Assembly: GCA_034439895.1 (NCBI GenBank) | Contig: JAWXBF010000248.1 | Location: forward strand, 1-56,086 | Direction: 5' to 3' | Source of the DNA: Deltaproteobacteria bacterium | Lineage (GTDB): Bacteria > Myxococcota_A > Polyangia > Fen-1088 | Length of the DNA stretch: 56,086 nt | Shown here: in pieces, positions 2 through 21,450 of the stretch | Layout of the letters: every line of letters starts with the position of its first letter | How positions within the stretch are numbered: position 1 is the stretch's first letter | The notes under the pieces: model-generated | The model's database searches: none | Told to the model about the DNA's origin: nothing | The model's input: the letters and a program-made list of their open reading frames with translations, nothing else | Made by a program: the position numbers and the translations under genes

Positions 2-412
2 CCCGCACCCGCACAAATTGAACCTCCGAAGATCCATTCTCGCCGGATCCTTGTGGTCGACGACGAAGAGGATATGGCCGAGTTGTTCGCCAGCATTCTC
101 GAACAGGACGGCCATCAGACCCTCGCCGTCACGGATGGGTTTGCCGCACAAGCAGCCATCCGCACCTTTGATCCTGAGGTCGTGCTGCTCGACATCGGCC
201 TCCCCCAGATGGACGGGTATGAGGTCGCAAAAAAGATCCGAGAGGAGCATGGCGAAAAGAAGATTTTGCTGATTGCCGTGACCGGGTATCAGAAAGACGC
301 CGCTCGGCTGACACAGGCCGGCTTCGACCAGCACCTCATCAAGCCGCCCAATCTGGAGAAGCTATCGGCGATGCTCTCTGCGTGGGACACCGGGGGACAG
401 TCGCCCCCATGA
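2..412 (+). CDS. Response-regulator receiver (REC) domain. The frame is open to the left window edge, so this is either the C-terminal receiver of a larger protein or a 5-prime-truncated CheY-like gene.
   Basis: The frame is open from nt 2 (..KIHSRRILVVDDEEDMAELF..). REC hallmarks are present: acidic pair VVDDEE, phospho-acceptor context VVLLDIGLPQMDG, AVTGY and HLIKP. The stop TGA at 410-412 overlaps the next start (ATGA). Confidence 0.8.
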   Translation, partial: PAPAQIEPPKIHSRRILVVDDEEDMAELFASILEQDGHQTLAVTDGFAAQAAIRTFDPEVVLLDIGLPQMDGYEVAKKIREEHGEKKILLIAVTGYQKDAARLTQAGFDQHLIKPPNLEKLSAMLSAWDTGGQSPP

Positions 413-1008
413 CGAAGACCAAGCATCCCAGGACAGAGTTTCCTATCGTTTGTGTGGGCGGATCGGCCGGGGGCCTCGACGCCTATATCCGTTTGCTACG
501 TCATCTGCCGGCCGACATGGGCGTGGCTGTCGTCATCGTGAATCACCTCAGAACCGTGGCCACCCGGCTTCACGAAATTCTCCCGAACTACACGAAGATG
601 CCAGTTGAACTCATCACGGATCGGTTGATCATCGAACCGAATCACGTGTTCATCATCCCGGAACAGCGTGACTTGCACGTGGTGGACGGAGCGTTTCGAC
701 TGAAGCCGATATCAAAGCCCCGCGGATGGCCCGACGTGATTACGGTCTTCCTTCATTCCTTGACGGAGCACTGGGACGGCAAGCTCATCGCTGTCATTGT
801 CTCTGGCTATGATGGCGATGGGGCCGCGGCGCTGTGCGGCATCAAGGAAGTGGGCGGCATTACGATCGCGCAATCGCCCGACACCGCCGCCATGCCGGAC
901 ATGCCCGAGAGCGCCATCGCAAGCGGTTGTATCGACTTCGTTCTATCGCCCGAGGAGATCGCTCGCGAAATCGCAAGAATCGCAGCGTTGGAAACAACCG
1001 AGCCGTAG
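409..1008 (+). CDS. Stand-alone CheB-type protein-glutamate methylesterase catalytic domain with no REC domain of its own
   Basis: The CheB Ser-His-Asp contexts are all present: VCVGGSAGGLDAY, VVIVNHLR, VSGYDGDGAAAL. ATG 409 overlaps the upstream stop by 4 nt. The ORF track start at 382 is an alternative. Confidence 0.8.
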   Translation: MTKTKHPRTEFPIVCVGGSAGGLDAYIRLLRHLPADMGVAVVIVNHLRTVATRLHEILPNYTKMPVELITDRLIIEPNHVFIIPEQRDLHVVDGAFRLKPISKPRGWPDVITVFLHSLTEHWDGKLIAVIVSGYDGDGAAALCGIKEVGGITIAQSPDTAAMPDMPESAIASGCIDFVLSPEEIAREIARIAALETTEP

Positions 1009-1495: not shown

Positions 1496-2602
1496 TTAGG
1501 GTGCGAGGATGCCGAACAGGTGGGTGTTGTCGGAAACGCGTAATACGGATTCATGCGCGGCACCGGTCGCAAAGACGTCGACGGGGATCGCGGTGTGCGA
1601 GGTGGTGGTGTAGTGATGGCTCGGCAAGTTCACATCCGTCGACGCATCGGTCGACGCATCCAGTACAAGCCCACCGGTTTCGTGATCCGAAGTGACGATG
1701 ATGAGCGTGTCGGTCCTATTGCCCATCCACACCATGGCTTCGGCAACCGCCTCGTCCAATTCCAAAATGGCGGCCACCACCCCGTCCAAATTGTTGGCGT
1801 GACCGTGTGTGTCGGTTGCCTCGGTCTCCACCAGCAAGAAAAAGCCCGCTTTTCCACGTGACATAAATCCCAACGCGGCCCGCGTCAGCTCAGGCAGCCG
1901 GGGTCGGGTCACGTCAAAGAGCCATGCGACGTGATCTGCGCCGGGGGATCGCACGGCCATCTCGGCTTCGGAGTCAATTGAGATGTAACCCGCGGTCTCG
2001 GCTTGGACCCGGCCCAATTCGAAAGAAGCCCCGCCCGCCATCAAATCGGGGCGGGTCCCGCGCAGGTAATCGGCGGCCACGCCAGCCTGGTCGAATCGGG
2101 AGGCTTGATGGGCGACAAAGGCAGAGGGGGTCGCGTCGACAAGCGGCGTATCGACCGTTGCCACACCCACCGGCGCACCCGTCCGTTGCCGCAGCTCAAG
2201 CGCGGTCACGAGGGGACGTCCATTTCCCGGGAGCGCCACCCCGAGCGTGTAGGGCGTCACCTTGTGACCCGTCGCGATGGCCGTGGCCGCAGCGCCCGAA
2301 TCGGACACCACGCCACCCGCGGCCTCTGTCGACATCAACACGTGGGTCGGGAAGCGATCGAAGTGCAGCGGCGCCTGTTTTACCAACCTTGCGGCCTGTA
2401 ATTGCGCGGGGCCAGCCCCATCCAGAATGAAGAGAAGCACGTTGTAGCGCGGTGGGCCAGCATCGCCCGAACGCAACAAACCGCCTTCCAAACCAGCGTG
2501 ATTGTAAACGGTCGGTGGCCGATCGCCGGCGCAGCCGAGCGCACCCGATCCCAGCAATCCGAACAACAATTTGATGATTCGAATGGTGCCGGGCGCACCC
2601 AT
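1496..2602 (-). CDS. Alkaline phosphatase family protein, probable lipoprotein
   Basis: Motifs FILDGAGP, the nucleophile context VSDSGAAATAIATGHK, ETEATDTHGHANN and VTSDHETGG. Starting at M15 gives the signal MGAPGTIRIIKLLFGLLGSGALGC with a lipobox. The ORF could start at 2644. Confidence 0.85.
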   Translation of the reverse strand: MGAPGTIRIIKLLFGLLGSGALGCAGDRPPTVYNHAGLEGGLLRSGDAGPPRYNVLLFILDGAGPAQLQAARLVKQAPLHFDRFPTHVLMSTEAAGGVVSDSGAAATAIATGHKVTPYTLGVALPGNGRPLVTALELRQRTGAPVGVATVDTPLVDATPSAFVAHQASRFDQAGVAADYLRGTRPDLMAGGASFELGRVQAETAGYISIDSEAEMAVRSPGADHVAWLFDVTRPRLPELTRAALGFMSRGKAGFFLLVETEATDTHGHANNLDGVVAAILELDEAVAEAMVWMGNRTDTLIIVTSDHETGGLVLDASTDASTDVNLPSHHYTTTSHTAIPVDVFATGAAHESVLRVSDNTHLFGILAP

Positions 2603-2712
2603 CCCATCGTGCGAAGGATATCGGGCTGGCGACTTGTGGAACAACTTTGCAAGAATACCGTAACTATTTACGATCGTCGCGGTTCCGATTGGCGTCTAGT
2701 GGCTGGAGCGCA

Positions 2713-3477
2713 ATGTCAACGTCCGCAACCGTTCTGACCGACACCCTGCATGGGTTCGAGCAGGCCGACGCCAACCGGATTGGCGAGCGGGCACTTTTGC
2801 GTCGATACGACTCCAAATTTCTTCTGCCGCAGGATGCATTTTGTCCATGGCTCAAGTCGCTGCAGCCCCACTATACGATTCTGTTGGCAGCGCAGAGCCC
2901 CATCGCGAATTACCGAACCGTGTATTTCGATACGCCCGAGCGGACGAGTTACCACGATCACGCGCGCGGTCGGAGACCTCGAACCAAGATTCGCATCCGA
3001 CACTACGCCGAGCGCCACCTGAGTTTCCTCGAAATCAAGACCAAGACCAACCACGGACAAACCGTGAAAGCCCGGCAGAAACGCGCGTTCAATGACGAGA
3101 CGCTGGCGGTTGCCGACCATGCCTTTGTCGCTGGCCTCATCCGCATCGATCCACTGAGTCTTTCGCCCAGTCTCGTCACCGACTTTCGCCGAATCACCCT
3201 GCTTGCCCGCGAACGCGACGAACGTGTGACGGTTGATCTCGACATGTCCTTCGAGCAACGGGGAGACAGACAATTTTTCCCGCCCGTGGCGCTGGTCGAG
3301 ATCAAACAGGGGCGCTTCACCCGCACCACACCTGCAATGGCAGGCTTGCATGCGTTCCACGGGCGCAGCGTTGCCTTCAGCAAATACTGCATGAGCCTTG
3401 CGCTCTCCGGCGAAGTACCCCGAACCCACACGTTCCGACCCGCGCTTCGACTGCTTGAAAGGATGTCACATGCTTGA
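2713..3477 (+). CDS. VTC domain-containing protein (polyphosphate-polymerase-like triphosphate-tunnel fold)
   Basis: Motifs RYDSKFLL, YRTVYFDT, RRPRTKIRIRHY, FLEIKTKTNHGQTVKARQ and VALVEIKQG. ATG 2713 is preceded by GGAG. The TTG at 2647 would leave only 2 nt to the divergent gene and runs through AT-rich promoter-like sequence. Confidence 0.8.
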   Translation: MSTSATVLTDTLHGFEQADANRIGERALLRRYDSKFLLPQDAFCPWLKSLQPHYTILLAAQSPIANYRTVYFDTPERTSYHDHARGRRPRTKIRIRHYAERHLSFLEIKTKTNHGQTVKARQKRAFNDETLAVADHAFVAGLIRIDPLSLSPSLVTDFRRITLLARERDERVTVDLDMSFEQRGDRQFFPPVALVEIKQGRFTRTTPAMAGLHAFHGRSVAFSKYCMSLALSGEVPRTHTFRPALRLLERMSHA

Positions 3478-4120
3478 ACTCTGGGGTTCCGATCTATTCT
3501 TTGATGGCGCCGACTTCGGAAAACTGTTCATGCGCATGGCGTTTGACCTGCTGGTCACGGCCGTCCTGGTGCGGGGCATCTACTACCCGCTCTACAAGCG
3601 GCGCGAGTTCGTCTTTATCTACTTCATCTTCAACCTCATCACGTTCAGCCTGTGCCATCTTTTGCGCAAGGTCCCGATCGAGCTTGGATTTGCGCTGGGG
3701 CTATTTGCCGTTTTCGGGATCCTGCGCTACCGGACCGAGCCCATCCGCATCCGGGATCTCTCCTACCTCTTCGTCGTGATAGGCGTCGGTATTCTCAACG
3801 CCGTCTCCAACAAGAAAATCAGCGTCGCGGAACTGCTGCTTGTCAACGGCGGCATCGTGTTCACAACGGCGTTGCTTGAATCGGCAAGCTTCGGTGGCCG
3901 CGAGGAGGAGCGCATCCTATTGTACGACAACATCGAGCTACTCAAACCGGAGCGGCACGCGGACTTCCTCGCCGATCTTGCGCGTCGCACCGGGCTCGAC
4001 ATCCAGAGGGTGGCCATCGGACAGGTGGATCTCTTGAAAGACACCGCTCTCATCACGGTGTATTACAACAAGCCGAAGAACGGCCACCCGAACGTCGTAT
4101 CGGGAGGGCCGGCATCGTGA
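3470..4120 (+). CDS. DUF4956 domain-containing integral membrane protein
   Basis: About five hydrophobic helices. Family-typical core GLFAVFGILRYRTEPIRIRDLSYLFVVIGVGILNAV. ATG 3470 overlaps the VTC stop (3475-3477) by 8 nt. Confidence 0.8.
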   Translation: MLELWGSDLFFDGADFGKLFMRMAFDLLVTAVLVRGIYYPLYKRREFVFIYFIFNLITFSLCHLLRKVPIELGFALGLFAVFGILRYRTEPIRIRDLSYLFVVIGVGILNAVSNKKISVAELLLVNGGIVFTTALLESASFGGREEERILLYDNIELLKPERHADFLADLARRTGLDIQRVAIGQVDLLKDTALITVYYNKPKNGHPNVVSGGPAS

Positions 4121-4773
4121 GATCTGTTGCAGCAACGACGTTGTGCGCCCTGGTGGCTATTGGAGCTGTTGACACTGCGCGGGCTGACGAAGGCCAACTC
4201 TGGAGCGAAGTGGGACTGCGCTACAAGGTGAACAAGAAAGTTCGTCTTGAGGCGAATCAGTACCTCCGTTTCACGACCTCACCACTCGAAACGGAACAGG
4301 TCATGCCCGAAGTTAGCGGAACCCATGAACCCATCGACGGGCTTCGGCTCCGTCTTGGCTACCGTTACATTTCGAGCCGCAACAAATTCGATCGTTTCGA
4401 GAAGTGGCACCGATTCTTTGGCGACGTCCGGGTGCAGTGGAAATGGAAAAAGGTCCGCATGACGAATCGCCTGCGCTATCAAAACCAGGTAACCGACGAG
4501 TTCGGCGAACAGAACAACCAAACCTTGCGCGATCAACTTCAGCTTGGATACGACACCGATCGGATGGTCGAACCGTTTGTGTCGGGAGAGCTGTTTTACC
4601 GGATGACCGGCAAACGGGCGCCGGGGATTGACAAGTACCGCTTCGAGATGGGCGCATCGGCCGAGATTGACCGACACGATGTCTCGCTGTCCTACCGGAT
4701 GGAGTTGCCCGTGGCCGATGCCAACGATCCGATGATGCACATTCTTTCGTTCTCATATCATTTCACGCTGTAG
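4117..4773 (+). CDS. DUF2490 domain-containing protein with a signal peptide (probable outer-membrane beta-strand protein)
   Basis: Signal MRSVAATTLCALVAIGAVDTARA. Alternating beta-strand-like pattern (LWSEVGLRYKVNKKVRLEANQYLRF.., LRLRLGYRYIS..). The GTG start overlaps the DUF4956 stop (GTGA). Confidence 0.65.
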   Translation: MRSVAATTLCALVAIGAVDTARADEGQLWSEVGLRYKVNKKVRLEANQYLRFTTSPLETEQVMPEVSGTHEPIDGLRLRLGYRYISSRNKFDRFEKWHRFFGDVRVQWKWKKVRMTNRLRYQNQVTDEFGEQNNQTLRDQLQLGYDTDRMVEPFVSGELFYRMTGKRAPGIDKYRFEMGASAEIDRHDVSLSYRMELPVADANDPMMHILSFSYHFTL

Positions 4774-4781
4774 GGATTCTC

Positions 4782-6830
4782 ATGTTGTACCGTCGTACGC
4801 TTTCTGGAATAGCCGTGGCCTCCGCTCTCTTTGCGGGCTGTTCTGCAGAGGGCGGCTCGAAAACCATTGGTCTATCCGCGATACCGCCACTTGTGGGCGT
4901 GGAGGGGCCCTGCGTTGCGCCCGCGCCCGTTGCCGGCGAGGCGGGACCGACCCACCTGCTTTCAGTCGGATGTGCCGCCGATTTCCGCGTGATTGCGGCG
5001 CAGCCAAGCAATACGAGTATCCCGGGCGCGCTGTCGGCGAAGATCATTCTCGACCGCGTGTCGGGCAAGGTCTATTTTCAAAATACCAATCGCTACAAGC
5101 TCCACTGGGAGTTTGCCTCCACGAATTTGTCCGGCAATGGGTTGCCCATCGTGCCCGCGCTGTCGGACTTCAACCGAACCGAGTACTACTCGCCCGATCG
5201 CCGTTTTGTGCTGGCGGCGATTACCTTCTATTCAGAAGCAAAACTCTGGGCACTGGAGATATCGCCCTACGACACGGCCTCGATCGAAATGGTTTCGTCG
5301 CTACACACTGCCATCAAAGCGGCGGCATATTTTGGTCCCGATTTGATCTTTCACCCAACGTCGGACACCGTGGAGCGGACCGCTGCCAATCTTCCGAAGA
5401 CGGTGCCCGTCGTCACGACCTCGGTCTTGTACGCCGGAATTTCTTACCAGCCGCTCAACCTTGCCACCTCACTCGGTCGTTTGCGTTTCGTCAAGGCGGC
5501 CGATCTGGAAAAGGCCTACGTCAGCTTCCGCGACATCGTGGTTCTTGATCGCGTTCCCAATGACATTTCGGTTGTCACGGGGCTCATCACGCAAGAATTT
5601 CAGACACCGCTTTCGCACGTGAACGTACTTTCACAGAACCGTGGCACACCCAACATGGCGCTGCGCAATGCGTTTTCGGATCCCAAATTGCGATCGTACG
5701 ACGGCAAGTGGGTTCGCCTGCGGGTCGGCGCGTTTGACTACGGGATCGAAGAGATCACGCTCGCGGAGGCCGATGTCTGGTGGGCGATGAACCGTCCTGC
5801 CGCCGTGGGAATTCCCGCCGTCGATCTGACCACAACCGAACTGCGAGACGTGACGAAGATGGTGGATGTGTCCGACCCGATGTTGTTGCGCGATCGGATC
5901 AAGGCCGCCATCCCGGCCTACGGCGGAAAGACGAGTCACTACGCGGTACTCGCGCAAGTTCCCGGCGTGCCGGTCCCAAAGGCTTTCGGTATTCCGGTTT
6001 TTTACTATGCGCAATTCATGTCCCAGAACGGCTTCGACGAGCGGGTTACCTTGATGTTGGCGGACGCCACCTTTCGCGGTGATCCCGCCGTTCGCGATGC
6101 CACCCTCGCGAAACTTCGCGCCGACATGGAGAAAGCACCGGTCGACGCGACCTTTCAACTAGCCTTGTTCGACAAACTGAATCGCGACTACCCCAAAACA
6201 CGGATGCGCTTTCGTTCGAGCACCAACGCCGAAGATCTCGAAGGCTTCACGGGAGCGGGTCTCTATACCTCGCACAGTGGTCAGCCCGGCGATCCCGATC
6301 GACCCGTCTTCGCTGCCATCCGAAAAGTATGGGCCAGCATCTGGTTTTTCCGCGCCTTTGAAGAGCGCGAATATCGCAGCATCGATCATCGTGCGGTTGG
6401 AATGGCATTGCTCGTTCACAACAGCTTCCCGAACGAAGCGGCCAACGGTGTGGCGCTGACCGCCAACCCCTTCGACACCTCGGGCGCCGATCCTGCGCTC
6501 TACATCAACGTACAGCAGGGTGAGGAATCCGTGGTACAGCCCGATCCAAGCATCACGACGGACCAGTTCCTCTACTACTACTATTCGCCCAATCGCCCGA
6601 TCGTCTTTCTTGACCACTCGTCGCTCATCTCGGCGAACAAGACGGTCTTGACCGCAACCCAAACTTACGAACTTGGGACGGCCCTCGATAGGATCCACCA
6701 GTTCTTCCTGCCCGCCTACGGCACCACGCCGGGTGTATTTTTCGCCATGGATGTCGAGTTCAAATTCGACGGCAATCCGCCCGTCCTGGCCGTCAAACAG
6801 GCAAGGCCCCATCCCGGTCGCGGTCTGTAA
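4782..6830 (+). CDS. Lipoprotein with a PEP/pyruvate-binding (PPDK_N, ATP-grasp) domain
   Basis: Signal plus lipobox MLYRRTLSGIAVASALFAGC. PpsA/PPDK-type nucleotide-binding signature RFRSSTNAEDLEGFTGAGLYTSH. It starts 8 nt after the DUF2490 stop. Confidence 0.8.
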   Translation: MLYRRTLSGIAVASALFAGCSAEGGSKTIGLSAIPPLVGVEGPCVAPAPVAGEAGPTHLLSVGCAADFRVIAAQPSNTSIPGALSAKIILDRVSGKVYFQNTNRYKLHWEFASTNLSGNGLPIVPALSDFNRTEYYSPDRRFVLAAITFYSEAKLWALEISPYDTASIEMVSSLHTAIKAAAYFGPDLIFHPTSDTVERTAANLPKTVPVVTTSVLYAGISYQPLNLATSLGRLRFVKAADLEKAYVSFRDIVVLDRVPNDISVVTGLITQEFQTPLSHVNVLSQNRGTPNMALRNAFSDPKLRSYDGKWVRLRVGAFDYGIEEITLAEADVWWAMNRPAAVGIPAVDLTTTELRDVTKMVDVSDPMLLRDRIKAAIPAYGGKTSHYAVLAQVPGVPVPKAFGIPVFYYAQFMSQNGFDERVTLMLADATFRGDPAVRDATLAKLRADMEKAPVDATFQLALFDKLNRDYPKTRMRFRSSTNAEDLEGFTGAGLYTSHSGQPGDPDRPVFAAIRKVWASIWFFRAFEEREYRSIDHRAVGMALLVHNSFPNEAANGVALTANPFDTSGADPALYINVQQGEESVVQPDPSITTDQFLYYYYSPNRPIVFLDHSSLISANKTVLTATQTYELGTALDRIHQFFLPAYGTTPGVFFAMDVEFKFDGNPPVLAVKQARPHPGRGL

Positions 6831-6836
6831 TACGTA

Positions 6837-9800
6837 TCAGTGAGCCGAAGGCACGCCCGCGTCTGACACACGACGCATATCACCGCAGTCGGGTCGATCC
6901 GGACAGCGATCCTCGGCCACCCTCTTCTGCGGATTCAGTCGGAACTTGTTGAGAAACAAAGATCCGTCGGGCTCCCACGCCAGGACGTCCTGCACCGCCA
7001 GACAGCGTTTCGCCCCGGAAGCGCAGGGCAAAACTGGAAAACCGCGAACCCACGCCTTGCGAACGGAATCGAAACCCCACAGGGCCCCGGTATCCCGATC
7101 CAACAGATTCAAAACCCCGTCACACGCTTCTGCACAGGCGGGCATGGGACCGGCGAGAATTTGCCAGCGACCGTCGGGCGAATTGCCGGGCGTTTGATTC
7201 ACACCCACCGTGGCAGGTGCCGTTGCACACTGTCGCTGCGAACCCTGCTGCACACAAAGCGAATCGTCGCTGCCTTGCATTGGACCACGCAATATTCCCG
7301 ACGTTTCGTCATACGACCAACGGGTTTTCGGCAGCAGCGTCGCGCCTTGCACGGCGGGCCAATTGGATTTCGGCGCGCGGTGAACATCGCCATCGGGGTT
7401 GATCCAGTAATACGATTCGGCGTCGGCCACAAGAAGCTGAGCGGCGGGCATCAACCTTTCAGGCGTTCCCCCTCGAACAGGCACCCGCCATCCGTGGCCG
7501 TTGGTAAAAAGAACGTAGTCCCCATCGACCGACAAACTGCGCGCGTGCGCCGTCGTCAAGCGACGCGCGATCCCATCCACCTTGCCGCGCGCAAGGCTTC
7601 CCCAGAAAGGAACGGCAGAAATGCCCCGGGCGTCCGCAACAAACACCTCGCGCTCGCCAATCGCAACGATCGCATCGATGCCGACGATCGGCACCCCCTC
7701 AACGATGGGCGACCCGGTATGGTCGGCCCATCCCAATAGCGATTTCTCCGGGGTTACGCCCTTGACTGCGAACACGACCAGGGTGTTATCGATGGCCTTC
7801 ACCACGGGCGTCACACCGGACGCAAGCGAAACACGGATCCCCTCGGGGATATCCTTGCCAGTCAGAGTCTTGCCTGTTCGCGTGTCCCATTTCATCAGGC
7901 GCCCGGCTTCTCTCCACGAGACGCCCCCGTCGCCGACGCTCAGCGCACTGCGAGGCGCTTTGCCGCCGACCGACAGAATCGCAACACCGGGAATCGGCGA
8001 CGTCGCTTGCGACGGAATTTCGTGTAGCAAACGGGGAACCGGAATGTCGAGGTACTCGGCCACCACAGAGCCGCCGGCATTCGCGTTCAAGTCGAAACGC
8101 ATTCCGTCTTGCTCCCAGCCGCGCGCGCGCGCTTGAATCTGGCGAAAATTGCCCACCTCGGTCGTGTTCTGCGGGTTGAAGCAAACTTGCCGGGTGGCAA
8201 CCTTCTCGGTCTCTGAAAGCCGACATCCGCTGCGACGAACGGCGCCTGCAGCGAGCGACAGACTATCCCAGAATACGTAGTCACCCGCCACTTCGAGATT
8301 TTCAACAAACGCATCTGGGCCTTTGGCTTCGGTCAATGGTATCACGCCGAGGCCGTCCAGGTTGCCGCGATACAACTGCGTCGGAGACGCCTCATCGCTT
8401 TGCGGCACCTTGGTTCGTTCGGTCCAGTAGACGTGGCGATCGGTCACGACCCATAAATCGATGTCCCTCGGCCGCTCGACCACAACCGAAGGGCTTTGTC
8501 CGCGCTTGCCGACCGTCCAGATGCGACGGTGCGTCGTTTGCAAGAATAGGTTCAGGCGATTGTTTTTCATCGATTGAACGACGTTGTCCAGGATGACCGC
8601 TTCCATCACCGGCTCAGGCGACAAGGCATCCACCGTCCGGGTCTTCATCACGGCTCGACTGAACCCTCGGATGCGAATCTGGTTGGGTTCTGATTGCGCG
8701 ACAAAGACCTCTTCGTCGTCGATCGTGTTGCCCGAACAACCGTATCTCAGGCCGTGGTTTTTGCGTTCTCGTCCCAGGCGATCCACCGTGAAATAGCCCT
8801 CGTCGTCACAACCTGCGATCTCGTTGCCCTTGACGTGCAACATTGCGTGTCCGGAGACTGCTGCCACGCGCGACATGCGAGCCGACCGTTTTTCAATCGA
8901 GATGAGCTCGCGGCCGCGAACGGCTAACACATCGTTGCCCCCGATGTGGATCACGCGATCAATGTGATCGGCGAGCACCCGGTTGCGAGCCTGGTTGGCA
9001 ACCACCCAAAGCTTGTTTTCGGTGCGAACCAGGAGCTTGTTTTCGGGCAACGGCAACACCGCGTCGCAAGGACCATCGAAAACGCGATCGCTTGTCCCGT
9101 CTGCAACATTGACCCGAAGGCTGCCTTCGTCGGTACATGCCAGGAGCGTGCGCCCAAACGGTGTGAGTCCTCGAACCGAGGCTGGCTCGAACCATTCCCC
9201 ACTGTCGATCAACGCCAGCGATCCACGATTTTTCTTTGCGTATCGCGTGATCAAACGTTGCACACCGCTCGACACAAATACGAACTCGGGCCCGACCGCG
9301 AGCGCCGACACCACCGGGTGAGAACCGGGCAACCGGTGGGTCGAGCCGTCACCGCGCGCCACCGAAATAACGGCGTCGTTGAGCGTGACAAAGACCGTAT
9401 CCCAGTCGAGTGCCATTGCACGCGGATTTCCCGACAGCGCGGCCTTTGCTTTCGGCACGCCCCCCTCGGTCGACAGGGAATACAGTTGACCCGGAGCCGC
9501 CACGAACAGGCCGCGTTCATCCATCGCAACCACGGTCGGTTCGACCATTTGACTCGCCAGTATCTGCGGTGGTTTGTCACCCGCTTTCTCCGCACGGATT
9601 ATCGTGCCCGCGCGGCGATCCGCCACGTACACTGCATCCAGATCCTGAGCCAAGCCCGTGGGTTCTTGCAGTCCGTCGAGGAATACCGAAACCTTCAAGG
9701 TCTGGCGATCCAATCGCAACACCTGCCCTGAGGCGGGAACCGCAAAATACACCTGCGCGTCATCCCCCACCATCGCGATCGGTGGACCTTCGCGTACCAA

Positions 9801-9971
9801 CCGAAGTGGAGCAGGAGGACGCTCATCGCGAACAACCACCGCGGCCGCGTCCACAACCGATGCAACCGGTACCACCACGACTGCGACCGGATCCCGCGTC
9901 TCCTCCCTTTTTGTCGAGCAACCGGCAGCCGCCAGCAAAATCAACAGAGTCCGGACTTTATATCGAGCCAA
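6837..9971 (-). CDS. Large hypothetical lipoprotein (1044 aa) with repeated beta-propeller-like blades and a Cys-rich C-terminus
   Basis: TTG start, signal MARYKVRTLLILLAAAGCS. Recurrent blade-like motifs DAVYVADR, RGLFVAAPG, DTVFVTLND, EFVFVSSG, DRHVYWTE, GDYVFWDS, AESYYWIN. No enzymatic motif recognised. Confidence 0.75.
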   Translation of the reverse strand: MARYKVRTLLILLAAAGCSTKREETRDPVAVVVVPVASVVDAAAVVVRDERPPAPLRLVREGPPIAMVGDDAQVYFAVPASGQVLRLDRQTLKVSVFLDGLQEPTGLAQDLDAVYVADRRAGTIIRAEKAGDKPPQILASQMVEPTVVAMDERGLFVAAPGQLYSLSTEGGVPKAKAALSGNPRAMALDWDTVFVTLNDAVISVARGDGSTHRLPGSHPVVSALAVGPEFVFVSSGVQRLITRYAKKNRGSLALIDSGEWFEPASVRGLTPFGRTLLACTDEGSLRVNVADGTSDRVFDGPCDAVLPLPENKLLVRTENKLWVVANQARNRVLADHIDRVIHIGGNDVLAVRGRELISIEKRSARMSRVAAVSGHAMLHVKGNEIAGCDDEGYFTVDRLGRERKNHGLRYGCSGNTIDDEEVFVAQSEPNQIRIRGFSRAVMKTRTVDALSPEPVMEAVILDNVVQSMKNNRLNLFLQTTHRRIWTVGKRGQSPSVVVERPRDIDLWVVTDRHVYWTERTKVPQSDEASPTQLYRGNLDGLGVIPLTEAKGPDAFVENLEVAGDYVFWDSLSLAAGAVRRSGCRLSETEKVATRQVCFNPQNTTEVGNFRQIQARARGWEQDGMRFDLNANAGGSVVAEYLDIPVPRLLHEIPSQATSPIPGVAILSVGGKAPRSALSVGDGGVSWREAGRLMKWDTRTGKTLTGKDIPEGIRVSLASGVTPVVKAIDNTLVVFAVKGVTPEKSLLGWADHTGSPIVEGVPIVGIDAIVAIGEREVFVADARGISAVPFWGSLARGKVDGIARRLTTAHARSLSVDGDYVLFTNGHGWRVPVRGGTPERLMPAAQLLVADAESYYWINPDGDVHRAPKSNWPAVQGATLLPKTRWSYDETSGILRGPMQGSDDSLCVQQGSQRQCATAPATVGVNQTPGNSPDGRWQILAGPMPACAEACDGVLNLLDRDTGALWGFDSVRKAWVRGFPVLPCASGAKRCLAVQDVLAWEPDGSLFLNKFRLNPQKRVAEDRCPDRPDCGDMRRVSDAGVPSAH

Positions 9972-10051: not shown

Positions 10052-11083
10052 TTATTTCGGACACTTCGTAAAGGTGGCGTTCGTGCTCACGCGATATTTC
10101 GCGCCAGAAAGTTGGCGGTCCGCGAAAAACATCGCAATTGGGTACGACTTGCCACTTTCGAGACCCAGCTCGTTCGCGATGGGATCGAGGCTCGCCGAGG
10201 CCGGTGCAAAGCCATGCAATCCACCGCTGTCGATCGCGAGTTTCCCGTTGATGAAGACCCACGAATCATCGTCGCTTTCCGAGATGAAGATCTGGCTCTT
10301 GCCCCTTTCGTACAAGAACTCGGCGTTGATCTCGACGGTGAACAGCTGATTGTGGGCGTCGTCATCGGTCTTTTCGAGATCCGTGGCGGGCTTGTCCGTT
10401 CCGACGTAATCGGTGTTTCCAAGTCCATCCCCGTCGATTGGGAAGAACATTTCGCTGCCGAACGCATTCAGCTGGAGGGTGCGTTTCTCCACCATGAACT
10501 TGCGCACAAGTCCCTTCTTGCTCGCAGAATCGTTCCACCACTCGTCGAAGGAAGCGCTGCTCACCGATTGAACAAATCCGTTGGCATCCTTGAACTCGCC
10601 GGTCGTTGACAGTTTGGGTTTGCCGTTTTCAAGTGCGGTCTTGACCATCCCAGGAGCGGAGAGCGCGGGCGCCGCCGTCGCTGGGAACTGGAAATCGGCG
10701 TGTGAGCTCACGAAGTCTCGAACGGTTCCCGTGAGTTCGGTGCAGCCCGTAACGGCCGTTCCGCCGGTGCCACCCGTTGCGGCAGTGCCGCCCGTGCCGC
10801 CCGCCTTCGAGCCACCGGTTCCGCCCGCAGCCGTTCCGCCCGTCGCGGTCCCGCTGGTTCCGCCCGTCGCGGTCCCACTCGTTCCACCCGTCGCGGTCCC
10901 ACTGGTTCCACCGGTGGTCGCCTTGCCACCGGTTCCGCCCGCGGCCTTGCCTCCTGCGCCTCCCGAGGCCTTGCCCGCTGAGCCTCCCTTGTCGGAGCCG
11001 CCGCCCTCACCCCCTTCCGAGCCGGAGCCACCGGAGCATCCAAACAACAAGCCTGCCGCGATCCAAATGCCAAGACGCTTCAT
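10052..11083 (-). CDS. Fibro-slime domain-containing lipoprotein (PA14-like) with a Gly/Thr-rich repeat linker
   Basis: Signal MKRLGIWIAAGLLFGCSGG. C-terminal motifs CTELTGTVRDF..HADFQ, FFPIDGDGLGN, DDDSWVFINGKLAIDSGGLH and MFFADRQ..AKYRVSTN are typical of the fibro-slime family. ATG at 11083 (ORF track 11161 is an upstream alternative). Confidence 0.85.
   Translation of the reverse strand: MKRLGIWIAAGLLFGCSGGSGSEGGEGGGSDKGGSAGKASGGAGGKAAGGTGGKATTGGTSGTATGGTSGTATGGTSGTATGGTAAGGTGGSKAGGTGGTAATGGTGGTAVTGCTELTGTVRDFVSSHADFQFPATAAPALSAPGMVKTALENGKPKLSTTGEFKDANGFVQSVSSASFDEWWNDSASKKGLVRKFMVEKRTLQLNAFGSEMFFPIDGDGLGNTDYVGTDKPATDLEKTDDDAHNQLFTVEINAEFLYERGKSQIFISESDDDSWVFINGKLAIDSGGLHGFAPASASLDPIANELGLESGKSYPIAMFFADRQLSGAKYRVSTNATFTKCPK
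10833..10915 (-). repeat. In-frame 24-bp tandem repeat (about 3.5 copies) encoding (GTSGTATG)n inside the fibro-slime gene
   Basis: Units at 10833-10856, 10857-10880 and 10881-10904 (gttccgcccgtcgcggtcccgctg and near-identical copies), plus a partial fourth. Confidence 0.75.
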
Positions 11084-11250
11084 TTCCCTGTGTCCTTGTC
11101 TCAAGCTGACGTTTCCGTGCCGGTCCACGGCTGAAATACCGAGGCCCTCACGTTCAGCCAAAATCCCACTTCGGAGACCCGGTGGACATTGACGTAAGGG
11201 ATTGTCGCGTTGACGAACCCAGCCCTGGGCCGGTAGTTTGCTTCCGGCCC

Positions 11251-13458: not shown

Positions 13459-14571
13459 TTAGCGAAGCTTGAGCGTGAGCACAAGTCCCAGCACGGCACA
13501 CATGAACGACACGATCCAGAAGCGCACCACGATTCGGGATTCTGGCCAACCCAGCTTCTCGAAGTGGTGGTGGATCGGCGCCATCAGGAACACCCGCTTC
13601 TTGGTGCGTTTGTAATACGCAACCTGAATGATGTCGCTGACCGCCTCGGCGACGAACACGCCCCCGATGATCGGCAACGACGCCTCGGTCTTGGTCGCAA
13701 GCGCCACAAATCCAAGCGCACCTCCGAGCGAAAGCGCACCCACGTCGCCCATAAAAACCTGCGCGGGATGCGTGTTGTACCAGAGAAATCCGATGCCCGC
13801 GCCACCGATGGCGCCGCAAAAGATCGCAAGCTCGCCCGCGCCTTCCACGTGGGCAATCCCGAGATACGACGCCACGTTGAAACCGTTGAGCGTGGCTCCC
13901 GCGGCATAGGAAAGCAACATCAGCGAGAACGCACAGATGATGACGGGCCCTATCGCGAGTCCATCGAGGCCATCGGTCAAATTGACCGCATTGGAGGTTC
14001 CCACCACAACGATGAGCCCAAAGAAAATATAGAGGGGAAGCGATAATTCCGGCGAAAACCGGGCGATCGACACCATCGGCAACACAAGGCGGGTTCGCAT
14101 TTCCGGTGCCAATACGTCTCCCATCAACAGCCACGTGACCGCCACACCGCCCACCACGAACTGGGCTAGCAGCTTGTATCGAGCCGGAACTCCCTTTTTG
14201 TTGCGATGAACGATCTTGATGTAGTCGTCAACAAAGCCGAGTACGCCGTAGCCAACGGTTACAAATAGCGCGAGCCAGACGAGCTGACTGGTCAAATCGC
14301 ACCACAGTAAGGTTCCGAATGCGAGCGCAAGCAAGATGAGAGCGCCGCCCATCGTCGGTGTGCCTTGCTTGCTGGCATGCGACTTCGGACCATCCTCACG
14401 AATCACTTCACCGAGCTGTCTGGATCGGGCGCGGGCGATGAACCAGGGTGCCACAAAAAATGTGATGCCGAGGGCCGTCAAAGTCGCAAGACCCATTCGG
14501 GTCGACGTGTAACGAAACACATTGAACACCGAGTACTCGGAACGAAGCAGCGCAAAAAGATGAAAAAGCAC
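13459..14571 (-). CDS. mraY: Phospho-N-acetylmuramoyl-pentapeptide transferase
   Basis: MLFHLFALL..FNVFRYTSTR.., KQGTPTMGG, NAVNLTDGLDGLA, PIHHHFE. Located directly downstream of murF. Confidence 0.95.
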   Translation of the reverse strand: MLFHLFALLRSEYSVFNVFRYTSTRMGLATLTALGITFFVAPWFIARARSRQLGEVIREDGPKSHASKQGTPTMGGALILLALAFGTLLWCDLTSQLVWLALFVTVGYGVLGFVDDYIKIVHRNKKGVPARYKLLAQFVVGGVAVTWLLMGDVLAPEMRTRLVLPMVSIARFSPELSLPLYIFFGLIVVVGTSNAVNLTDGLDGLAIGPVIICAFSLMLLSYAAGATLNGFNVASYLGIAHVEGAGELAIFCGAIGGAGIGFLWYNTHPAQVFMGDVGALSLGGALGFVALATKTEASLPIIGGVFVAEAVSDIIQVAYYKRTKKRVFLMAPIHHHFEKLGWPESRIVVRFWIVSFMCAVLGLVLTLKLR

Positions 14572-14575
14572 GTTC

Positions 14576-19901: not shown

Positions 19902-20293
19902 GGGTGTTCCTTCGGTGCCGTCACTGGCTCGGCAGATCTATCCGTGTGCGCCGGTTTCCGTCCACCGCGATCAGGATCACCGAGTGCATCAAGCGCGATG
20001 ATGTCATCGGTTCGGGGTGGACGCAGTCCCAGCTTGTCGTTGGCAATCGCGACGATGCGCCCCGGATCTTTCAACACACCAATCTCAAGCGCAAGCTGCC
20101 GCTTTTTTTCAAGCAGCCGCGTGCGATCCGCGCGTGCTTGCCCGAGGGCCAACCCAACTTCGAGTTTCTTGATGTTGATCGCCACGTGCCCCAGGGCCGC
20201 CAGCGTGAAGACCAGCAGCAACAGCATCAACACCCCATGCGCGGGATGGCGTTTGCGGGCACCCGCTTCATTGATTGCCCTGGTCGCGATCAC
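19898..20293 (-). CDS. ftsL: Cell division protein FtsL-like (bitopic, coiled coil)
   Basis: Single TM VLMLLLLVFTLAALGHVAI followed by a coiled-coil-like segment and ..RIVAIANDKLGL... Position between rsmH and ftsI, with ATGA overlaps on both sides. Confidence 0.7.
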   Translation of the reverse strand: MIATRAINEAGARKRHPAHGVLMLLLLVFTLAALGHVAINIKKLEVGLALGQARADRTRLLEKKRQLALEIGVLKDPGRIVAIANDKLGLRPPRTDDIIALDALGDPDRGGRKPAHTDRSAEPVTAPKEHP

Positions 20294-21288: not shown

Positions 21289-21450
21289 AACTGGACTTCC
21301 GCCACCCGATGGTGTGCAAAATATTGGAATAATTGAAACTTCCCTGATGTTTCCAGAACAACAGCGTTCCGGGAAAATCATCGCTCGGGATAGAACCAAG
21401 TCAAATTTCCGACAGTTCGGCTTTTCCCAATGATTCCAGCCCTGTAAATG

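What the first reader, a model, noticed from the sequence alone, without database searches (positions are those of the whole stretch)
1496..6830. VTC / DUF4956 / DUF2490 / exported ATP-grasp operon beside a lipoprotein alkaline phosphatase: candidate envelope polyphosphate synthesis-export system
Seen: four co-directional genes form one tightly packed operon. They are a soluble VTC-domain ORF (2713-3477), a DUF4956 membrane ORF with about 5 TM helices (3470-4120), a signal-peptide DUF2490 ORF (4117-4773), and a lipoprotein with a PEP/pyruvate-binding ATP-grasp domain (4782-6830). The junctions are an 8-nt overlap, a 4-nt GTGA overlap and an 8-nt gap. A lipoprotein alkaline phosphatase is divergently transcribed immediately upstream. 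The VTC ORF keeps charged tunnel-type motifs (RYDSKFLL, YRTVYFDT, RTKIRIRHY, LEIKTK, VEIKQG). Established: the VTC domain of yeast Vtc4 is a triphosphate-tunnel polyphosphate polymerase that passes the growing chain through partner membrane subunits. Bacterial VTC and DUF4956 families are, as far as I know, described only as co-occurring uncharacterised domains, often next to CotH kinases. Inference: this may be a PPK-independent machine that makes polyP, or a related phospho-polymer, at the inner membrane and delivers it to the periplasm or outer membrane. DUF2490 would be the outer-membrane component, the ATP-grasp lipoprotein would occupy the slot usually held by CotH, and the phosphatase would act as a recycling or trimming enzyme.
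Basis: partly seen in the sequence, partly recalled or inferred. Interest (0 to 1): 0.75.

Follow-up and report, generated by a model that had tools for sequence, protein, structure and literature searches.

The report
Candidate bacterial VTC-type polyphosphate export operon
A tightly packed four-gene operon in a myxobacterial chromosome pairs a yeast-Vtc4-like polyphosphate polymerase with a membrane partner, an outer-membrane barrel and an exported phosphohistidine dikinase; it is a testable candidate for a second, PPK-independent route by which bacteria make phosphate polymer and place it outside the cytoplasm.

Summary
In detail: all five ORFs, their families, their export signals and the 8-nt, 4-nt and 8-nt junctions are as described. 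The VTC protein models as a triphosphate tunnel whose 13 best PDB matches are all yeast Vtc4/Vtc2/Vtc3. It keeps the equivalents of Vtc4 R264, R266, K281, K294, R361, R373, E426 and K428.

VTC-DUF4956 is a near-obligate pair (64 of 71 loci). DUF2490 follows it in 40 of 76 loci. In sister clusters that slot is held by OprO/OprP-type phosphate porins. Other recurring neighbours are also exported and phosphate-related: CotH kinases, a lipoprotein pyrophosphatase and, here, a lipoprotein alkaline phosphatase.

It is a glucan-water-dikinase-like enzyme: an N-terminal domain, a phosphohistidine swivel domain with invariant H279, then a PPDK_N ATP-grasp. It belongs to a large uncharacterised exported family. 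VTC or DUF4956 lies near it in 28 of 80 loci. The family usually has its own lipoprotein partners, which this window lacks.

Best reading, with confidence about 0.5: polyphosphate is made at the inner membrane, exported, and used or processed in the envelope. No biochemistry exists for any bacterial member.

The parts
1496..2644 (-). Lipoprotein alkaline phosphatase, divergent from the operon. The likely true start is the ATG at 2605, giving MGAPGTIRIIKLLFGLLGSGALG|C.
   Evidence: PF00245 E 4e-39 and PF01676 E 4.4e-11. The lipobox was read from the translation. It lies next to VTC in L090, L084 and L005 as well.
2606..2712 (.). Divergent intergenic region between the phosphatase and VTC; presumed shared regulatory region.
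   Evidence: 93% mean column identity among the window, L090 and L084. It is 90.7% identical to L090, against 77.5-88.8% for the flanking coding sequences. No sigma-70 consensus match.
2713..3477 (+). Soluble VTC-domain protein (254 aa), a Vtc4-like triphosphate tunnel enzyme and the candidate polyphosphate polymerase. Key residues: R94, R96, E107, K109, K119, R160, R171, E196, K198, S223, K224.
   Evidence: PF09359 E 4.1e-24. AF2 model pLDDT 93.5. The Foldseek top 13 hits are all yeast Vtc4/2/3; 3g3r_B has E 2.4e-12 and TMq 0.65. Residues were mapped through Vtc2 to Vtc4. Invariant columns come from 26 homologues. No hydrophobic segment.
3470..4120 (+). DUF4956 inner-membrane protein (216 aa): 5 hydrophobic segments, an invariant GLFAVFGILRYRT motif (R86, R88) and a ~70-aa C-terminal soluble domain. 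Start overlaps the VTC stop by 8 nt.
   Evidence: PF16316 E 2.6e-45. Hydropathy. Invariant columns. VTC lies immediately upstream in 64 of 71 DUF4956-centred loci.
4117..4773 (+). DUF2490 protein (218 aa) with a signal peptide; predicted outer-membrane beta-barrel. GTGA start/stop overlap with DUF4956.
   Evidence: PF10677 E 1.8e-17. The C-terminal ..ILSFSYHFTL beta-signal is shared by most of 54 family members. Listed as putative porin family TC 1.B.81 (PMC4827864). Follows DUF4956 in 40 of 76 loci.
4782..6830 (+). Exported lipoprotein dikinase (682 aa). Layout: signal and lipobox aa 1-20 (C20, codon 4839-4841); flexible tether to about aa 56; N-terminal alpha/beta domain aa ~57-235; phosphohistidine swivel domain aa ~236-345 with invariant TPLSH (H279, codon 5616-5618); PPDK_N ATP-grasp aa ~357-676 (K383, R478, E484, D485, E659, Q673).
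   Evidence: PF01326 E 5e-22. A 23-sequence alignment has a lipobox Cys in nearly all members and gives the invariant motifs. PF22973 GWD1_pHisD is hit by 17 of 23 members, best E 2.2e-5. AF2 pLDDT 85.7. Foldseek top hits are rifampin phosphotransferase, PEP synthase and PPDK.
6837..9971 (-). 1044-aa lipoprotein with no Pfam family, convergent on the dikinase gene. Context only; membership of the system is not shown.
   Evidence: No Pfam hit. A 980-aa counterpart holds the same position in L090. Outside close relatives it was found in only one other dikinase locus (L035).

Best explanation
The operon encodes an envelope-spanning system for a phosphate polymer. Shown: a cytoplasmic protein with the fold and catalytic tunnel residues of the yeast polyphosphate polymerase Vtc4 is translationally coupled to a 5-helix inner-membrane protein (DUF4956), then to a signal-peptide barrel protein (DUF2490) and an exported lipoprotein dikinase. 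A lipoprotein alkaline phosphatase sits next door. Inferred: VTC uses cytoplasmic ATP to extend a polyphosphate chain. The chain is handed to an oligomer of DUF4956, whose invariant RYRT arginines would line the entrance, and is threaded to the periplasm, as Vtc4 threads its product through the Vtc1/3/4 channel. DUF2490 is the outer-membrane conduit or anchor for that anion. In sister clusters an OprO/OprP-type phosphate or pyrophosphate porin does this job. The lipoprotein dikinase (ATP-grasp plus phospho-His H279 plus an N-terminal acceptor-binding domain, the domain order of plant glucan-water dikinase) works outside the cytoplasm on or with this polymer. Most likely it takes a phosphoryl group onto H279 and passes it to an envelope or matrix acceptor, and exported polyphosphate is a plausible donor in an ATP-poor compartment. 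The lipoprotein phosphatase trims or recycles the phosphate.
For: VTC: Pfam hit over the whole domain; the AF2 model's 13 best PDB matches are all Vtc4/2/3, ahead of YgiF and CYTH enzymes. The residues mutated to kill Vtc4 (R264, R266, E426; PMC9911596) map to invariant R94, R96 and E196. K281, K294, R361, R373 and K428 are also kept. E196-x-K198 is the Vtc4 state, E426-x-K428. The hydrolytic enzyme AtTTM3 has E169-x-E171 there (PMC4641920). Invariant S223-K224 sits where the catalytic K458 is expected. Coupling: 8-nt and 4-nt gene overlaps; VTC directly precedes DUF4956 in 64 of 71 loci from at least 7 phyla. Extracytoplasmic, phosphate-related partners recur: DUF2490 in 40 of 76 loci; Pfam-verified Porin_O_P in Acidobacteria, Marinobacter and Kofleriaceae-type clusters; a lipoprotein inorganic pyrophosphatase directly after DUF4956 in Flavobacteriales; secreted CotH kinases; a lipoprotein alkaline phosphatase here and in L005. 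Dikinase link: VTC or DUF4956 lies within the fetched flanks of 28 of 80 dikinase loci, and of 16 of 36 loci with at least 8 kb on both sides. By my own estimate, two independent single-copy genes in a genome of about 10 Mb would fall that close well under 1% of the time. Both the dikinase and CotH occur fused to Lamin-tail domains. Literature: mutants of the DUF4956 and secreted CotH genes that flank a VTC gene reduce Pel-dependent aggregation in S. intermedius (PMC12345266).
Against: No bacterial VTC or DUF4956 protein has been assayed, and the TTM superfamily is functionally diverse. Of the enzymes tested in PMC4641920 (AtTTM3, YgiF, mouse ThTPase, Vtc4p), only Vtc4p made polyphosphate. DUF4956 is unrelated to the eukaryotic VTC membrane domain and has no solved relative, so a channel role is pure analogy. 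The beta-1 motif is R31-x-D33-x-K35, so an acidic residue survives where hydrolytic TTMs have their metal-binding Glu; this alignment is my inference. The K458 equivalence rests on motif and position only. The dikinase keeps every nucleotide-binding motif of ATP-using PPDK and PEP synthase, which argues for ATP rather than polyphosphate as its donor. 52 of 80 dikinase loci show no VTC or DUF4956 nearby, and only 2 of 41 fully flanked VTC-DUF4956 loci carry the dikinase. The S. intermedius paper singles out the DUF4956 and CotH mutants, not the VTC mutant. Phosphate porins, phosphatase and pyrophosphatase are equally at home in an uptake system.
Confidence: 0.5

Rival explanations
1. Phosphate scavenging and storage, running inward. 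The barrel or porin admits phosphate, pyrophosphate or polyphosphate. The lipoprotein phosphatase (or pyrophosphatase elsewhere) frees orthophosphate in the periplasm. DUF4956 is an uptake or sensing component. Cytoplasmic VTC locks incoming phosphate into polyphosphate as a sink.
For: OprO/OprP-family porins, alkaline phosphatase and pyrophosphatase are classical phosphate-starvation uptake components by established knowledge, and all are neighbours of VTC-DUF4956. The phosphatase shares a strongly conserved divergent promoter region with the operon.
Against: No Pst or Pit-type transporter, PhoU or PhoBR was found in the locus or among the window ORFs scanned. Secreted kinases (CotH, the dikinase) have no obvious role in uptake, yet they are recurrent partners. 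Vtc4 chemistry consumes ATP and extrudes product away from the cytoplasmic face (PMC9911596).
Confidence: 0.2
2. Two independent modules that happen to be fused into one operon here. VTC-DUF4956-DUF2490 is one widespread cassette. The lipoprotein dikinase is a separate ATP-dependent envelope enzyme that normally works with its own U315 and DUF1554-like lipoprotein partners.
For: U315 accompanies the dikinase in 67 of 80 loci and the DUF1554-like protein in 43 of 80; VTC or DUF4956 in only 28 of 80. The dikinase is present in only 2 of 41 fully flanked VTC-DUF4956 loci. The ATP-grasp motifs are intact.
Against: A 35-44% rate of proximity is, by my estimate, far above chance for two rare families. 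Several distinct gene orders all keep them together: the window type, the Kofleriaceae type VTC-DUF4956-A232-dikinase-porin, and the Polyangiales type. The gap is only 8 nt in this window. An exported ATP-grasp enzyme needs a phosphoryl donor that the periplasm is not known to supply.
Confidence: 0.2
3. VTC is not a polymerase here but a tunnel-fold hydrolase or signalling enzyme (tripolyphosphatase, nucleotide cyclase or similar). DUF4956 is a regulatory membrane protein, as has been suggested from a resemblance to MgtC.
For: E. coli YgiF tripolyphosphatase is the next-best structural match (E 7.8e-10, TMq 0.53). D33 is an invariant acidic residue in beta-1. One divergent DUF4956 gives a weak MgtC hit (E 0.021). 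PMC12345266 describes the S. intermedius homologue as an MgtC-like membrane domain plus an ACT domain.
Against: All 13 top structural matches are VTC proteins. The Vtc4-type E-x-K is kept, not the hydrolase-type E-x-E. The extra invariant basic residues R90 and K92 extend the basic strand. A profile comparison of window-type DUF4956 with E. coli YhiD, an MgtC-family protein, found nothing (probability 0.2%).
Confidence: 0.1

Closest known systems
Eukaryotic VTC complex (yeast Vtc4/Vtc3/Vtc1), the polyphosphate polymerase-translocase
   Same: Same Pfam domain (PF09359). Best structural match. Equivalents of R264, R266, K281, K294, R361, R373, E426 and K428 are kept. The catalytic domain is on the cytoplasmic side and genetically coupled to a membrane protein.
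   Different: The tunnel domain is a free 254-aa protein with no SPX sensor domain and no fused membrane helices. The membrane partner (DUF4956: 5 helices plus a C-terminal soluble domain) is unrelated to the 3-helix Vtc1-type domain. Outer-membrane and exported enzyme partners have no eukaryotic counterpart.
cotH - 'polyphosphate polymerase' - DUF4956 accessory genes of Gram-positive pel loci (bioRxiv 10.1101/768473; PMC12345266) and C. perfringens NELoc-2 (PMC2879425)
   Same: The same VTC-DUF4956 pair next to a secreted kinase. The link to extracellular matrix biology is genetic only.
   Different: Those are monoderm systems with CotH and no outer-membrane component. Here the system is diderm, with a DUF2490 barrel, a phosphohistidine dikinase instead of (or, in relatives, alongside) CotH, and a lipoprotein phosphatase.
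Alpha-glucan, water dikinase (GWD) and the PEP synthase / PPDK / rifampin phosphotransferase family
   Same: PPDK_N ATP-grasp with conserved GGK, RSSxxxED and E..Q-x-RP motifs. A swivel domain with an invariant T-x-x-S-H, hit by the GWD phosphohistidine-domain model. Domain order phospho-His then ATP-grasp, as in GWD. Best PDB matches are RPH, PEP synthase and PPDK.
   Different: It is exported as a lipoprotein, whereas the characterised relatives named here work where ATP is available (cytoplasm or plastid stroma; my knowledge). No PEP/pyruvate TIM-barrel domain and no CBM45 were found. The N-terminal ~180-aa domain matches no known family. The acceptor is unknown.
OprO/OprP phosphate- and pyrophosphate-selective porins (PF07396)
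   Same: They occupy the DUF2490 position in sister VTC-DUF4956 clusters. This points to a phosphate-containing anion crossing the outer membrane.
   Different: DUF2490 is about half the size (roughly 195 mature residues) and is a different family. No channel activity has been shown for it.
PPK1/PPK2 polyphosphate kinases
   Same: They would make the same product from ATP.
   Different: Unrelated folds. PPK enzymes make cytoplasmic granules. None is encoded among the window ORFs scanned.

Membership tests
VTC domain (PF09359) / Vtc4-type triphosphate tunnel polymerase | Sequence match to the family model above the curated cut-off | tested here: met
   85.9 bits against a cut-off of 23, model positions 2-233 of 235.
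VTC domain (PF09359) / Vtc4-type triphosphate tunnel polymerase | Closed beta-tunnel fold closest to Vtc4 | tested here: met
   AF2 pLDDT 93.5. The Foldseek top 13 are all Vtc4/2/3; 3g3r_B has E 2.4e-12 and TMq 0.65. YgiF scores 0.53 and CYTH enzymes about 0.45.
VTC domain (PF09359) / Vtc4-type triphosphate tunnel polymerase | Tunnel residues R264, R266 and E426, whose mutation inactivates Vtc4, plus K281, K294, R361 and R373 | tested here: met
   They map to invariant R94, R96, E196, K109, K119, R160 and R171, through the profile-to-Vtc2 and Vtc2-to-Vtc4 alignments. Invariance.
VTC domain (PF09359) / Vtc4-type triphosphate tunnel polymerase | Catalytic lysine K458 (PMC4641920) | tested here: inconclusive
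   Invariant S223-K224 lies at the start of the C-terminal helix, 28 residues after E196; in Vtc4 the spacing is 32. No tool produced a residue-level alignment of this segment.
VTC domain (PF09359) / Vtc4-type triphosphate tunnel polymerase | Polyphosphate synthesis from ATP | not testable with these tools
   Needs an enzyme assay.
Eukaryotic VTC complex architecture | SPX domain and a fused Vtc1-type 3-helix membrane domain | tested here: not met
   Only PF09359 is found and there is no hydrophobic segment. The partner is DUF4956, a different family.
DUF4956 (PF16316) | Family model match and multi-pass membrane topology | tested here: met
   154.6 bits against a cut-off of 30.6. 5 hydrophobic segments.
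MgtC family (PF02308), as suggested for DUF4956 in PMC12345266 | Detectable homology to MgtC or YhiD | tested here: not met
   No MgtC hit for the window protein at E up to 1. hhalign against E. coli YhiD gave probability 0.2%. Only a divergent subfamily member gave E 0.021.
DUF2490 (PF10677; TC 1.B.81 putative porin) | Family model match, signal peptide and a C-terminal beta-signal typical of outer-membrane proteins | tested here: met
   64.1 bits against a cut-off of 29.8. Signal peptide read from the sequence. ..SFSYHFTL terminus, with similar termini in most of 54 members.
DUF2490 (PF10677; TC 1.B.81 putative porin) | Beta-barrel structure and anion channel activity | not tested
PEP-utilising dikinases (PEP synthase, PPDK) | PPDK_N ATP-grasp nucleotide-binding domain | tested here: met
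   79 bits against a cut-off of 27. Aligned to PEP synthases 9dae and 2ols. Foldseek E 1.9e-15 to 5hv3.
PEP-utilising dikinases (PEP synthase, PPDK) | Phosphohistidine swivel domain | tested here: inconclusive
   Invariant TPLSH279 in a DIVVLD..PNDIS..GIIT context. PF22973 is hit by 17 of 23 members, but all fall below its 27-bit cut-off (best 24.7 bits). Secondary Foldseek hits go to proteins I recall as having swivelling beta/beta/alpha domains.
PEP-utilising dikinases (PEP synthase, PPDK) | C-terminal PEP/pyruvate-binding TIM barrel | tested here: not met
   The protein ends with the ATP-grasp, and no such Pfam hit was found. It is therefore not a PEP synthase or PPDK.
Alpha-glucan, water dikinase | Domain order phospho-His then C-terminal PPDK_N | tested here: met
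   Phospho-His region aa ~236-345, ATP-grasp aa 357-676.
Alpha-glucan, water dikinase | N-terminal starch-binding CBM45 modules | tested here: not met
   No Pfam family on aa 1-364 at E up to 10.
Bacterial lipoproteins | Signal peptide ending in a lipobox Cys | tested here: met
   The dikinase has LFAG|C20. A lipobox is conserved in nearly all of 23 homologues and in distant members. The phosphatase has ALG|C.
Alkaline phosphatase (PF00245) | Family model match | tested here: met
   135.2 bits against a cut-off of 24.4.

The most novel reading that the evidence does not exclude
VTC-DUF4956 is a general bacterial device for exporting phosphoanhydride energy. It makes polyphosphate from cytoplasmic ATP and threads it into the ATP-free periplasm or cell surface. 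There, exported kinases that have long lacked an obvious phosphoryl donor (secreted CotH kinases, and this lipoprotein phosphohistidine dikinase) use it to phosphorylate envelope or matrix targets. DUF2490 or OprO/P-type porins carry it across the outer membrane, and lipoprotein phosphatases or pyrophosphatases recycle it.
Probability: 0.2. Interest if true: 0.9.

Novelty: new variant of a known kind. Interest (0 to 1): 0.72.

Why it matters
Bacterial polyphosphate synthesis is attributed to PPK1 and PPK2. A 2026 preprint reports PPK-independent, extracellular polyphosphate in Bacillus cereus with no known source (PMC13484657), so a second synthetic route is an open question. A Vtc4-like enzyme coupled to membrane, outer-membrane and exported partners would be such a route, and it would place the polymer outside the cytoplasm by design.

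It would also offer an answer to how exported kinases are supplied with phosphoryl donors. The components are widespread. Relatives of DUF4956 were found in more than 547 species-representative genomes across at least 7 phyla, and the dikinase's N-terminal region defines about 1,800 protein clusters at 50% identity. The hypothesis can be tested with standard assays.

Tried and rejected
- **Direct VTC-to-PDB searches.** phmmer of the VTC protein and hmmsearch of its 26-sequence profile did not reach Vtc4; only Vtc2 (E 0.017) and Vtc3 were hit. I worked around this by re-querying with the Vtc2 fragments to obtain Vtc4 numbering. The K458 segment still could not be aligned.
- **VTC-centred locus scans.** The scan with the diverse alignment failed for lack of a conserved stretch. 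The narrower alignment found only 6 loci. I used DUF4956 as the anchor instead.
- **Reciprocal DUF2490 census.** The pattern search recovered only two loci already known, and this used the last genome scan. Whether DUF2490 is dedicated to VTC-DUF4956 therefore remains untested.
- **DUF2490 homologue search.** It gave only 3 proteins, so no useful alignment for structure prediction was available.
- **DUF4956 relationships.** The profile against the PDB gave no hit. The comparison with E. coli YhiD (MgtC family) gave no similarity. I reject the MgtC relationship for the window-type protein.
- **Local CotH labels.** My first labels were contaminated by Lamin-tail-domain proteins. I reseeded them with the CotH domain alone. 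All census counts rest on local jackhmmer labels that were spot-checked with Pfam, not on exhaustive annotation.
- **Phospho-His region against the PDB.** The profile gave nothing meaningful.
- **Promoter and terminator scan.** Uninformative.
- **Sigma-54-like element.** TGGAAC..TTGCA in the intergenic region has GG-N9-GC spacing rather than N10, read by eye. I do not claim it.

Full report
**1.

| Gene | Coordinates | Family | E-value |
|---|---|---|---|
| Alkaline phosphatase | 1496-2644 (-) | PF00245 | 4e-39 |
| VTC | 2713-3477 (+) | PF09359 | 4.1e-24 |
| DUF4956 | 3470-4120 (+) | PF16316 | 2.6e-45 |
| DUF2490 | 4117-4773 (+) | PF10677 | 1.8e-17 |
| PPDK_N protein | 4782-6830 (+) | PF01326 (aa 380-676) | 5e-22 |

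NCBIfam has no model for the three middle genes. I read the junctions from the DNA. ATG 3470 overlaps the VTC stop TGA 3475-3477. GTGA at 4117-4120 joins DUF4956 to DUF2490. TAG 4771-4773 is followed by ATG 4782.

VTC has no hydrophobic segment and DUF4956 has five. DUF2490 starts with a cleavable signal. Both the PPDK_N protein (LFAG|C20) and the phosphatase (ALG|C) carry lipoboxes.

The rest of the window is ordinary chromosome: a cell-wall cluster (mraW, ftsI, murE, murF, mraY) at 13.4-21.4 kb, Ser/Thr kinases and oxidoreductases. No ppk or pst genes were found among the ORFs scanned. The closest relatives are uncultured Myxococcota.

**2. The VTC protein is Vtc4-like in fold and in the catalytic tunnel.**

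A 26-sequence alignment gives a high-confidence model (pLDDT 93.5). Its 13 best PDB matches are all yeast Vtc4, Vtc2 or Vtc3 tunnel domains; 3g3r_B has E 2.4e-12 and TMq 0.65. The tripolyphosphatase YgiF scores TMq 0.53 and CYTH-type enzymes about 0.45.

Sequence searches did not reach Vtc4 directly. I therefore chained two alignments: the bacterial profile to Vtc2, and Vtc2 to Vtc4. Construct numbering plus 185 reproduces the published R264 and R266. The mapping is:

| Bacterial residue | Vtc4 residue |
|---|---|
| R94 | R264 |
| R96 | R266 |
| E107 | E279 |
| K109 | K281 |
| K119 | K294 |
| F158 | Y359 |
| R160 | R361 |
| R171 | R373 |
| E196 | E426 |
| K198 | K428 |

All of these except F158 are invariant in the 26 homologues. 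R264, R266 and E426 are the residues mutated to inactivate Vtc4 (PMC9911596). The E-x-K at 196-198 is the Vtc4 state. The hydrolytic enzyme AtTTM3 has E169-x-E171 at this place, part of an acidic patch that Vtc4 replaces with basic residues (PMC4641920).

Two points remain open. The equivalence of invariant S223-K224 to the catalytic K458 rests on position only. An invariant Asp (D33) in the first strand may be a remnant of that acidic patch.

**3. Comparative genomics defines a recurrent system.**

I anchored a census on DUF4956. More than 547 species-representative genomes carry a relative. The 80 best loci span Myxococcota, Bacteroidota, Acidobacteriota, Bdellovibrionota, Fibrobacterota, Ignavibacteria and Binatia. 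From:
- VTC lies immediately upstream in 64 of 71 loci.
- DUF2490 lies within 1.8 kb downstream in 40 of 76 loci.
- Of the 41 loci with at least 6 kb on both sides, 24 carry an outer-membrane barrel (DUF2490 or Porin_O_P) and 16 carry a secreted kinase (CotH in 14, the dikinase in 2).

Precomputed Pfam annotation of individual contigs shows the pattern clearly:

| Locus | Source | Gene order |
|---|---|---|
| L091 | Acidobacteria | CotH, Porin_O_P, VTC, DUF4956 |
| L092 | Marinobacter | CotH, VTC, DUF4956, Porin_O_P |
| L093 | Bacteroidales | CotH (with a type-IX secretion tail), two small genes, VTC, DUF4956, DUF2490 |
| L090 | Close relative of the window | Same order as the window |

The place held by DUF2490 in the window is therefore held elsewhere by members of the OprO/OprP phosphate- and pyrophosphate-selective porin family. 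I verified these with Pfam. Most DUF2490 proteins, including this one, end in the alternating aromatic beta-signal of outer-membrane barrels, and the family is listed as a putative porin family (PMC4827864).

In four Flavobacteriales loci the gene directly after DUF4956 is a family-I inorganic pyrophosphatase with a lipoprotein signal. The lipoprotein alkaline phosphatase of the window recurs next to VTC in L005, a distant relative.

Nearly every recurrent partner of the cytoplasmic VTC enzyme is thus exported and acts on phosphate esters or anhydrides. This is the strongest indirect argument that the product of VTC-DUF4956 ends up outside the inner membrane.

**4. The "ATP-grasp lipoprotein" is an exported phosphohistidine dikinase.**

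Its family is large and well conserved:
- 4,195 hits at E ≤ 1e-5, with the 120 best listed hits 55-64% identical to it apart from two closer relatives.
- 443 genomic loci.
- 1,795 clusters at 50% identity for the N-terminal half alone.

Nearly all of 23 aligned members carry a lipobox Cys, as do 30-35% identical members from other phyla.

Upstream of the ATP-grasp lies an invariant stretch, RDIVVLD-VPNDIS-GIIT-EFQTPLSH279-NVLSQNRGTPNM. This matches the logic of the PEP-utiliser swivel domain. It is hit, in one register, by the Pfam model for the phosphohistidine domain of alpha-glucan water dikinase in 17 of 23 members. The best E is 2.2e-5 and all hits are below the curated cut-off.

The ATP-grasp keeps GGK383, R478-SS-x-x-x-E484-D485, E659 and Q673-x-R-P, aligned to PEP synthases. 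The model (pLDDT 85.7) is closest to rifampin phosphotransferase, PEP synthase and PPDK. There is no PEP/pyruvate barrel domain and no starch-binding module, and the ~180-residue N-terminal domain matches nothing known.

The protein therefore works like a His-dikinase with the domain order of glucan-water dikinase. It is a member of none of the characterised subfamilies, and its acceptor is unknown.

**5. How tightly is the dikinase tied to VTC?**

Among 80 dikinase-centred loci:
- VTC or DUF4956 lies within the fetched flanks in 28, and in 16 of the 36 loci with at least 8 kb on both sides.
- Porin_O_P is present in 16.
- CotH is present in 11.

Several different gene orders keep them together. 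One example is the Kofleriaceae type: VTC, DUF4956, a lipoprotein, the dikinase, then the porin. By my estimate this is far above chance for rare families.

The association is still facultative. The dikinase's commonest neighbours are a Cys-rich ~315-aa lipoprotein with no Pfam family ("U315", 67 of 80) and a DUF1554-like lipoprotein (43 of 80). Neither is present anywhere in this 56-kb window.

The dikinase also co-occurs with CotH in some clusters. Like CotH, it exists in versions fused to an N-terminal Lamin-tail domain. It is therefore a functional analogue or companion of CotH rather than a simple replacement.

**6. Most likely mechanism.**

*Shown:* the anatomy, the Vtc4-like tunnel, the export signals and the conserved neighbourhoods.

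*Inferred:*
- VTC polymerises phosphate from cytoplasmic ATP.
- DUF4956 takes the chain across the inner membrane, as the unrelated Vtc1/3/4 channel does in yeast (PMC9911596). Translational coupling and the invariant RYRT arginines fit this role.
- DUF2490 passes or anchors the polymer at the outer membrane.
- The dikinase uses or modifies it in the envelope.
- The phosphatase recycles phosphate.

I put this at about 0.5.

The rivals are:
- An inward phosphate-scavenging system (0.2).
- Two independent modules sharing an operon (0.2).
- A non-polymerase tunnel enzyme with a regulatory membrane partner (0.1).

The suggested MgtC relationship of DUF4956 (PMC12345266) was not reproduced for the window-type protein.

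**7. What is known, and novelty.**

The library holds only five papers that mention DUF4956 and three that mention DUF2490. All mentions are incidental.

The cotH, VTC, DUF4956 neighbourhood has been noted beside Gram-positive pel operons and in C. perfringens. Mutants of the DUF4956 and CotH genes reduce Pel-dependent aggregation in S. intermedius. I found no biochemical study of any bacterial member. A 2026 preprint reports PPK-independent extracellular polyphosphate in B. cereus with no known source.

I did not find the following described in the library searched: the diderm version, the interchange of DUF2490 with phosphate porins, the exported pyrophosphatase and phosphatase partners, or the exported glucan-water-dikinase-like enzyme. 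I classify the system as a new variant of a known kind, the VTC polymerase-translocase. I give it high interest because it makes a second bacterial polyphosphate pathway, and a possible energy supply for extracytoplasmic phosphorylation, directly testable.

Noticed in passing
L001 6166-7125 and 7141-7980; L003 5167-7282; L002 7033-7989 (absent from the window): The dikinase family's commonest neighbours are a Cys-rich ~315-aa lipoprotein with no Pfam family (67 of 80 loci) and a DUF1554-like lipoprotein (43 of 80). A DUF3108-like lipoprotein ('A232') is present in 18 of 80. None of them occurs anywhere in this 56-kb window. They may be partners or substrates of the dikinase.
   Followed up: partly
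L108 8346-8915; also L112 5603-6169, L114 8610-9176, L127 8605-9174: In Flavobacteriales the gene directly after DUF4956 is a family-I inorganic pyrophosphatase (PF00719, E 4.5e-30) with a lipoprotein signal (..VSS|C..VIS|C). It is therefore an exported pyrophosphatase.
   Followed up: partly
P0377, P0352, P0319 (proteins): Roughly 1,000-aa versions of the dikinase carry an N-terminal Lamin-tail domain (PF00932), the same accessory domain that is fused to CotH in neighbouring genes.
   Followed up: partly
window 2606-2712: The phosphatase-VTC intergenic region is at least as conserved as the coding DNA: 90.7% identity to L090 against 77.5-88.8% for the genes. It includes an invariant TTTGCAAGAATACCGTAACTATTTACGATCGTCGCGGTTC block. 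No sigma-70 consensus match was found.
   Followed up: partly
L002 16817-17500, L076 14363-15046, L059 8643-9326, L012 16739-17434: A second, divergent DUF4956 subfamily (motif GALAIIRFRT..DPRD instead of GLFAVFGILRYRT) lies near dikinase, CotH and VTC genes in Fibrobacterota and Polyangia. One member gives a weak MgtC hit, E 0.021.
   Followed up: partly
window 6837-9971 (-): A 1044-aa lipoprotein with no Pfam family; NCBIfam gives only faint ScyE-like and CIS12-like hits. It is convergent on the dikinase gene with a 6-nt gap. It is syntenic in L090 (980 aa) and was seen once more, in L035.
   Followed up: no
window 10052-11161 (-): A fibro-slime/PA14 protein (TIGR02148 E 1e-19, PF07691 E 3.5e-9) with a long Gly/Thr-rich repeat region (GGTSGTATGGTSGTAT...). 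It is probably a secreted or surface protein.
   Followed up: no
P0003 (982 aa; alignment A1): One homologue has its N-terminal domain plus phosphohistidine region duplicated in tandem before the ATP-grasp.
   Followed up: no
window 53-1008 (+): A response-regulator-like ORF (53-412; assignment read from the translation only, not tested) overlaps the start of a stand-alone CheB methylesterase-domain protein (382-1008, PF01339 E 7.9e-45). Both lie just upstream of the phosphatase.
   Followed up: no
window 13459-21399 (-): Cell-wall and division gene cluster, with Pfam hits for MraY-type glycosyltransferase family 4, two Mur ligases, a PBP transpeptidase with a PASTA domain, and the MraW methylase. 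This shows the window is core chromosome, not a mobile element.
   Followed up: no
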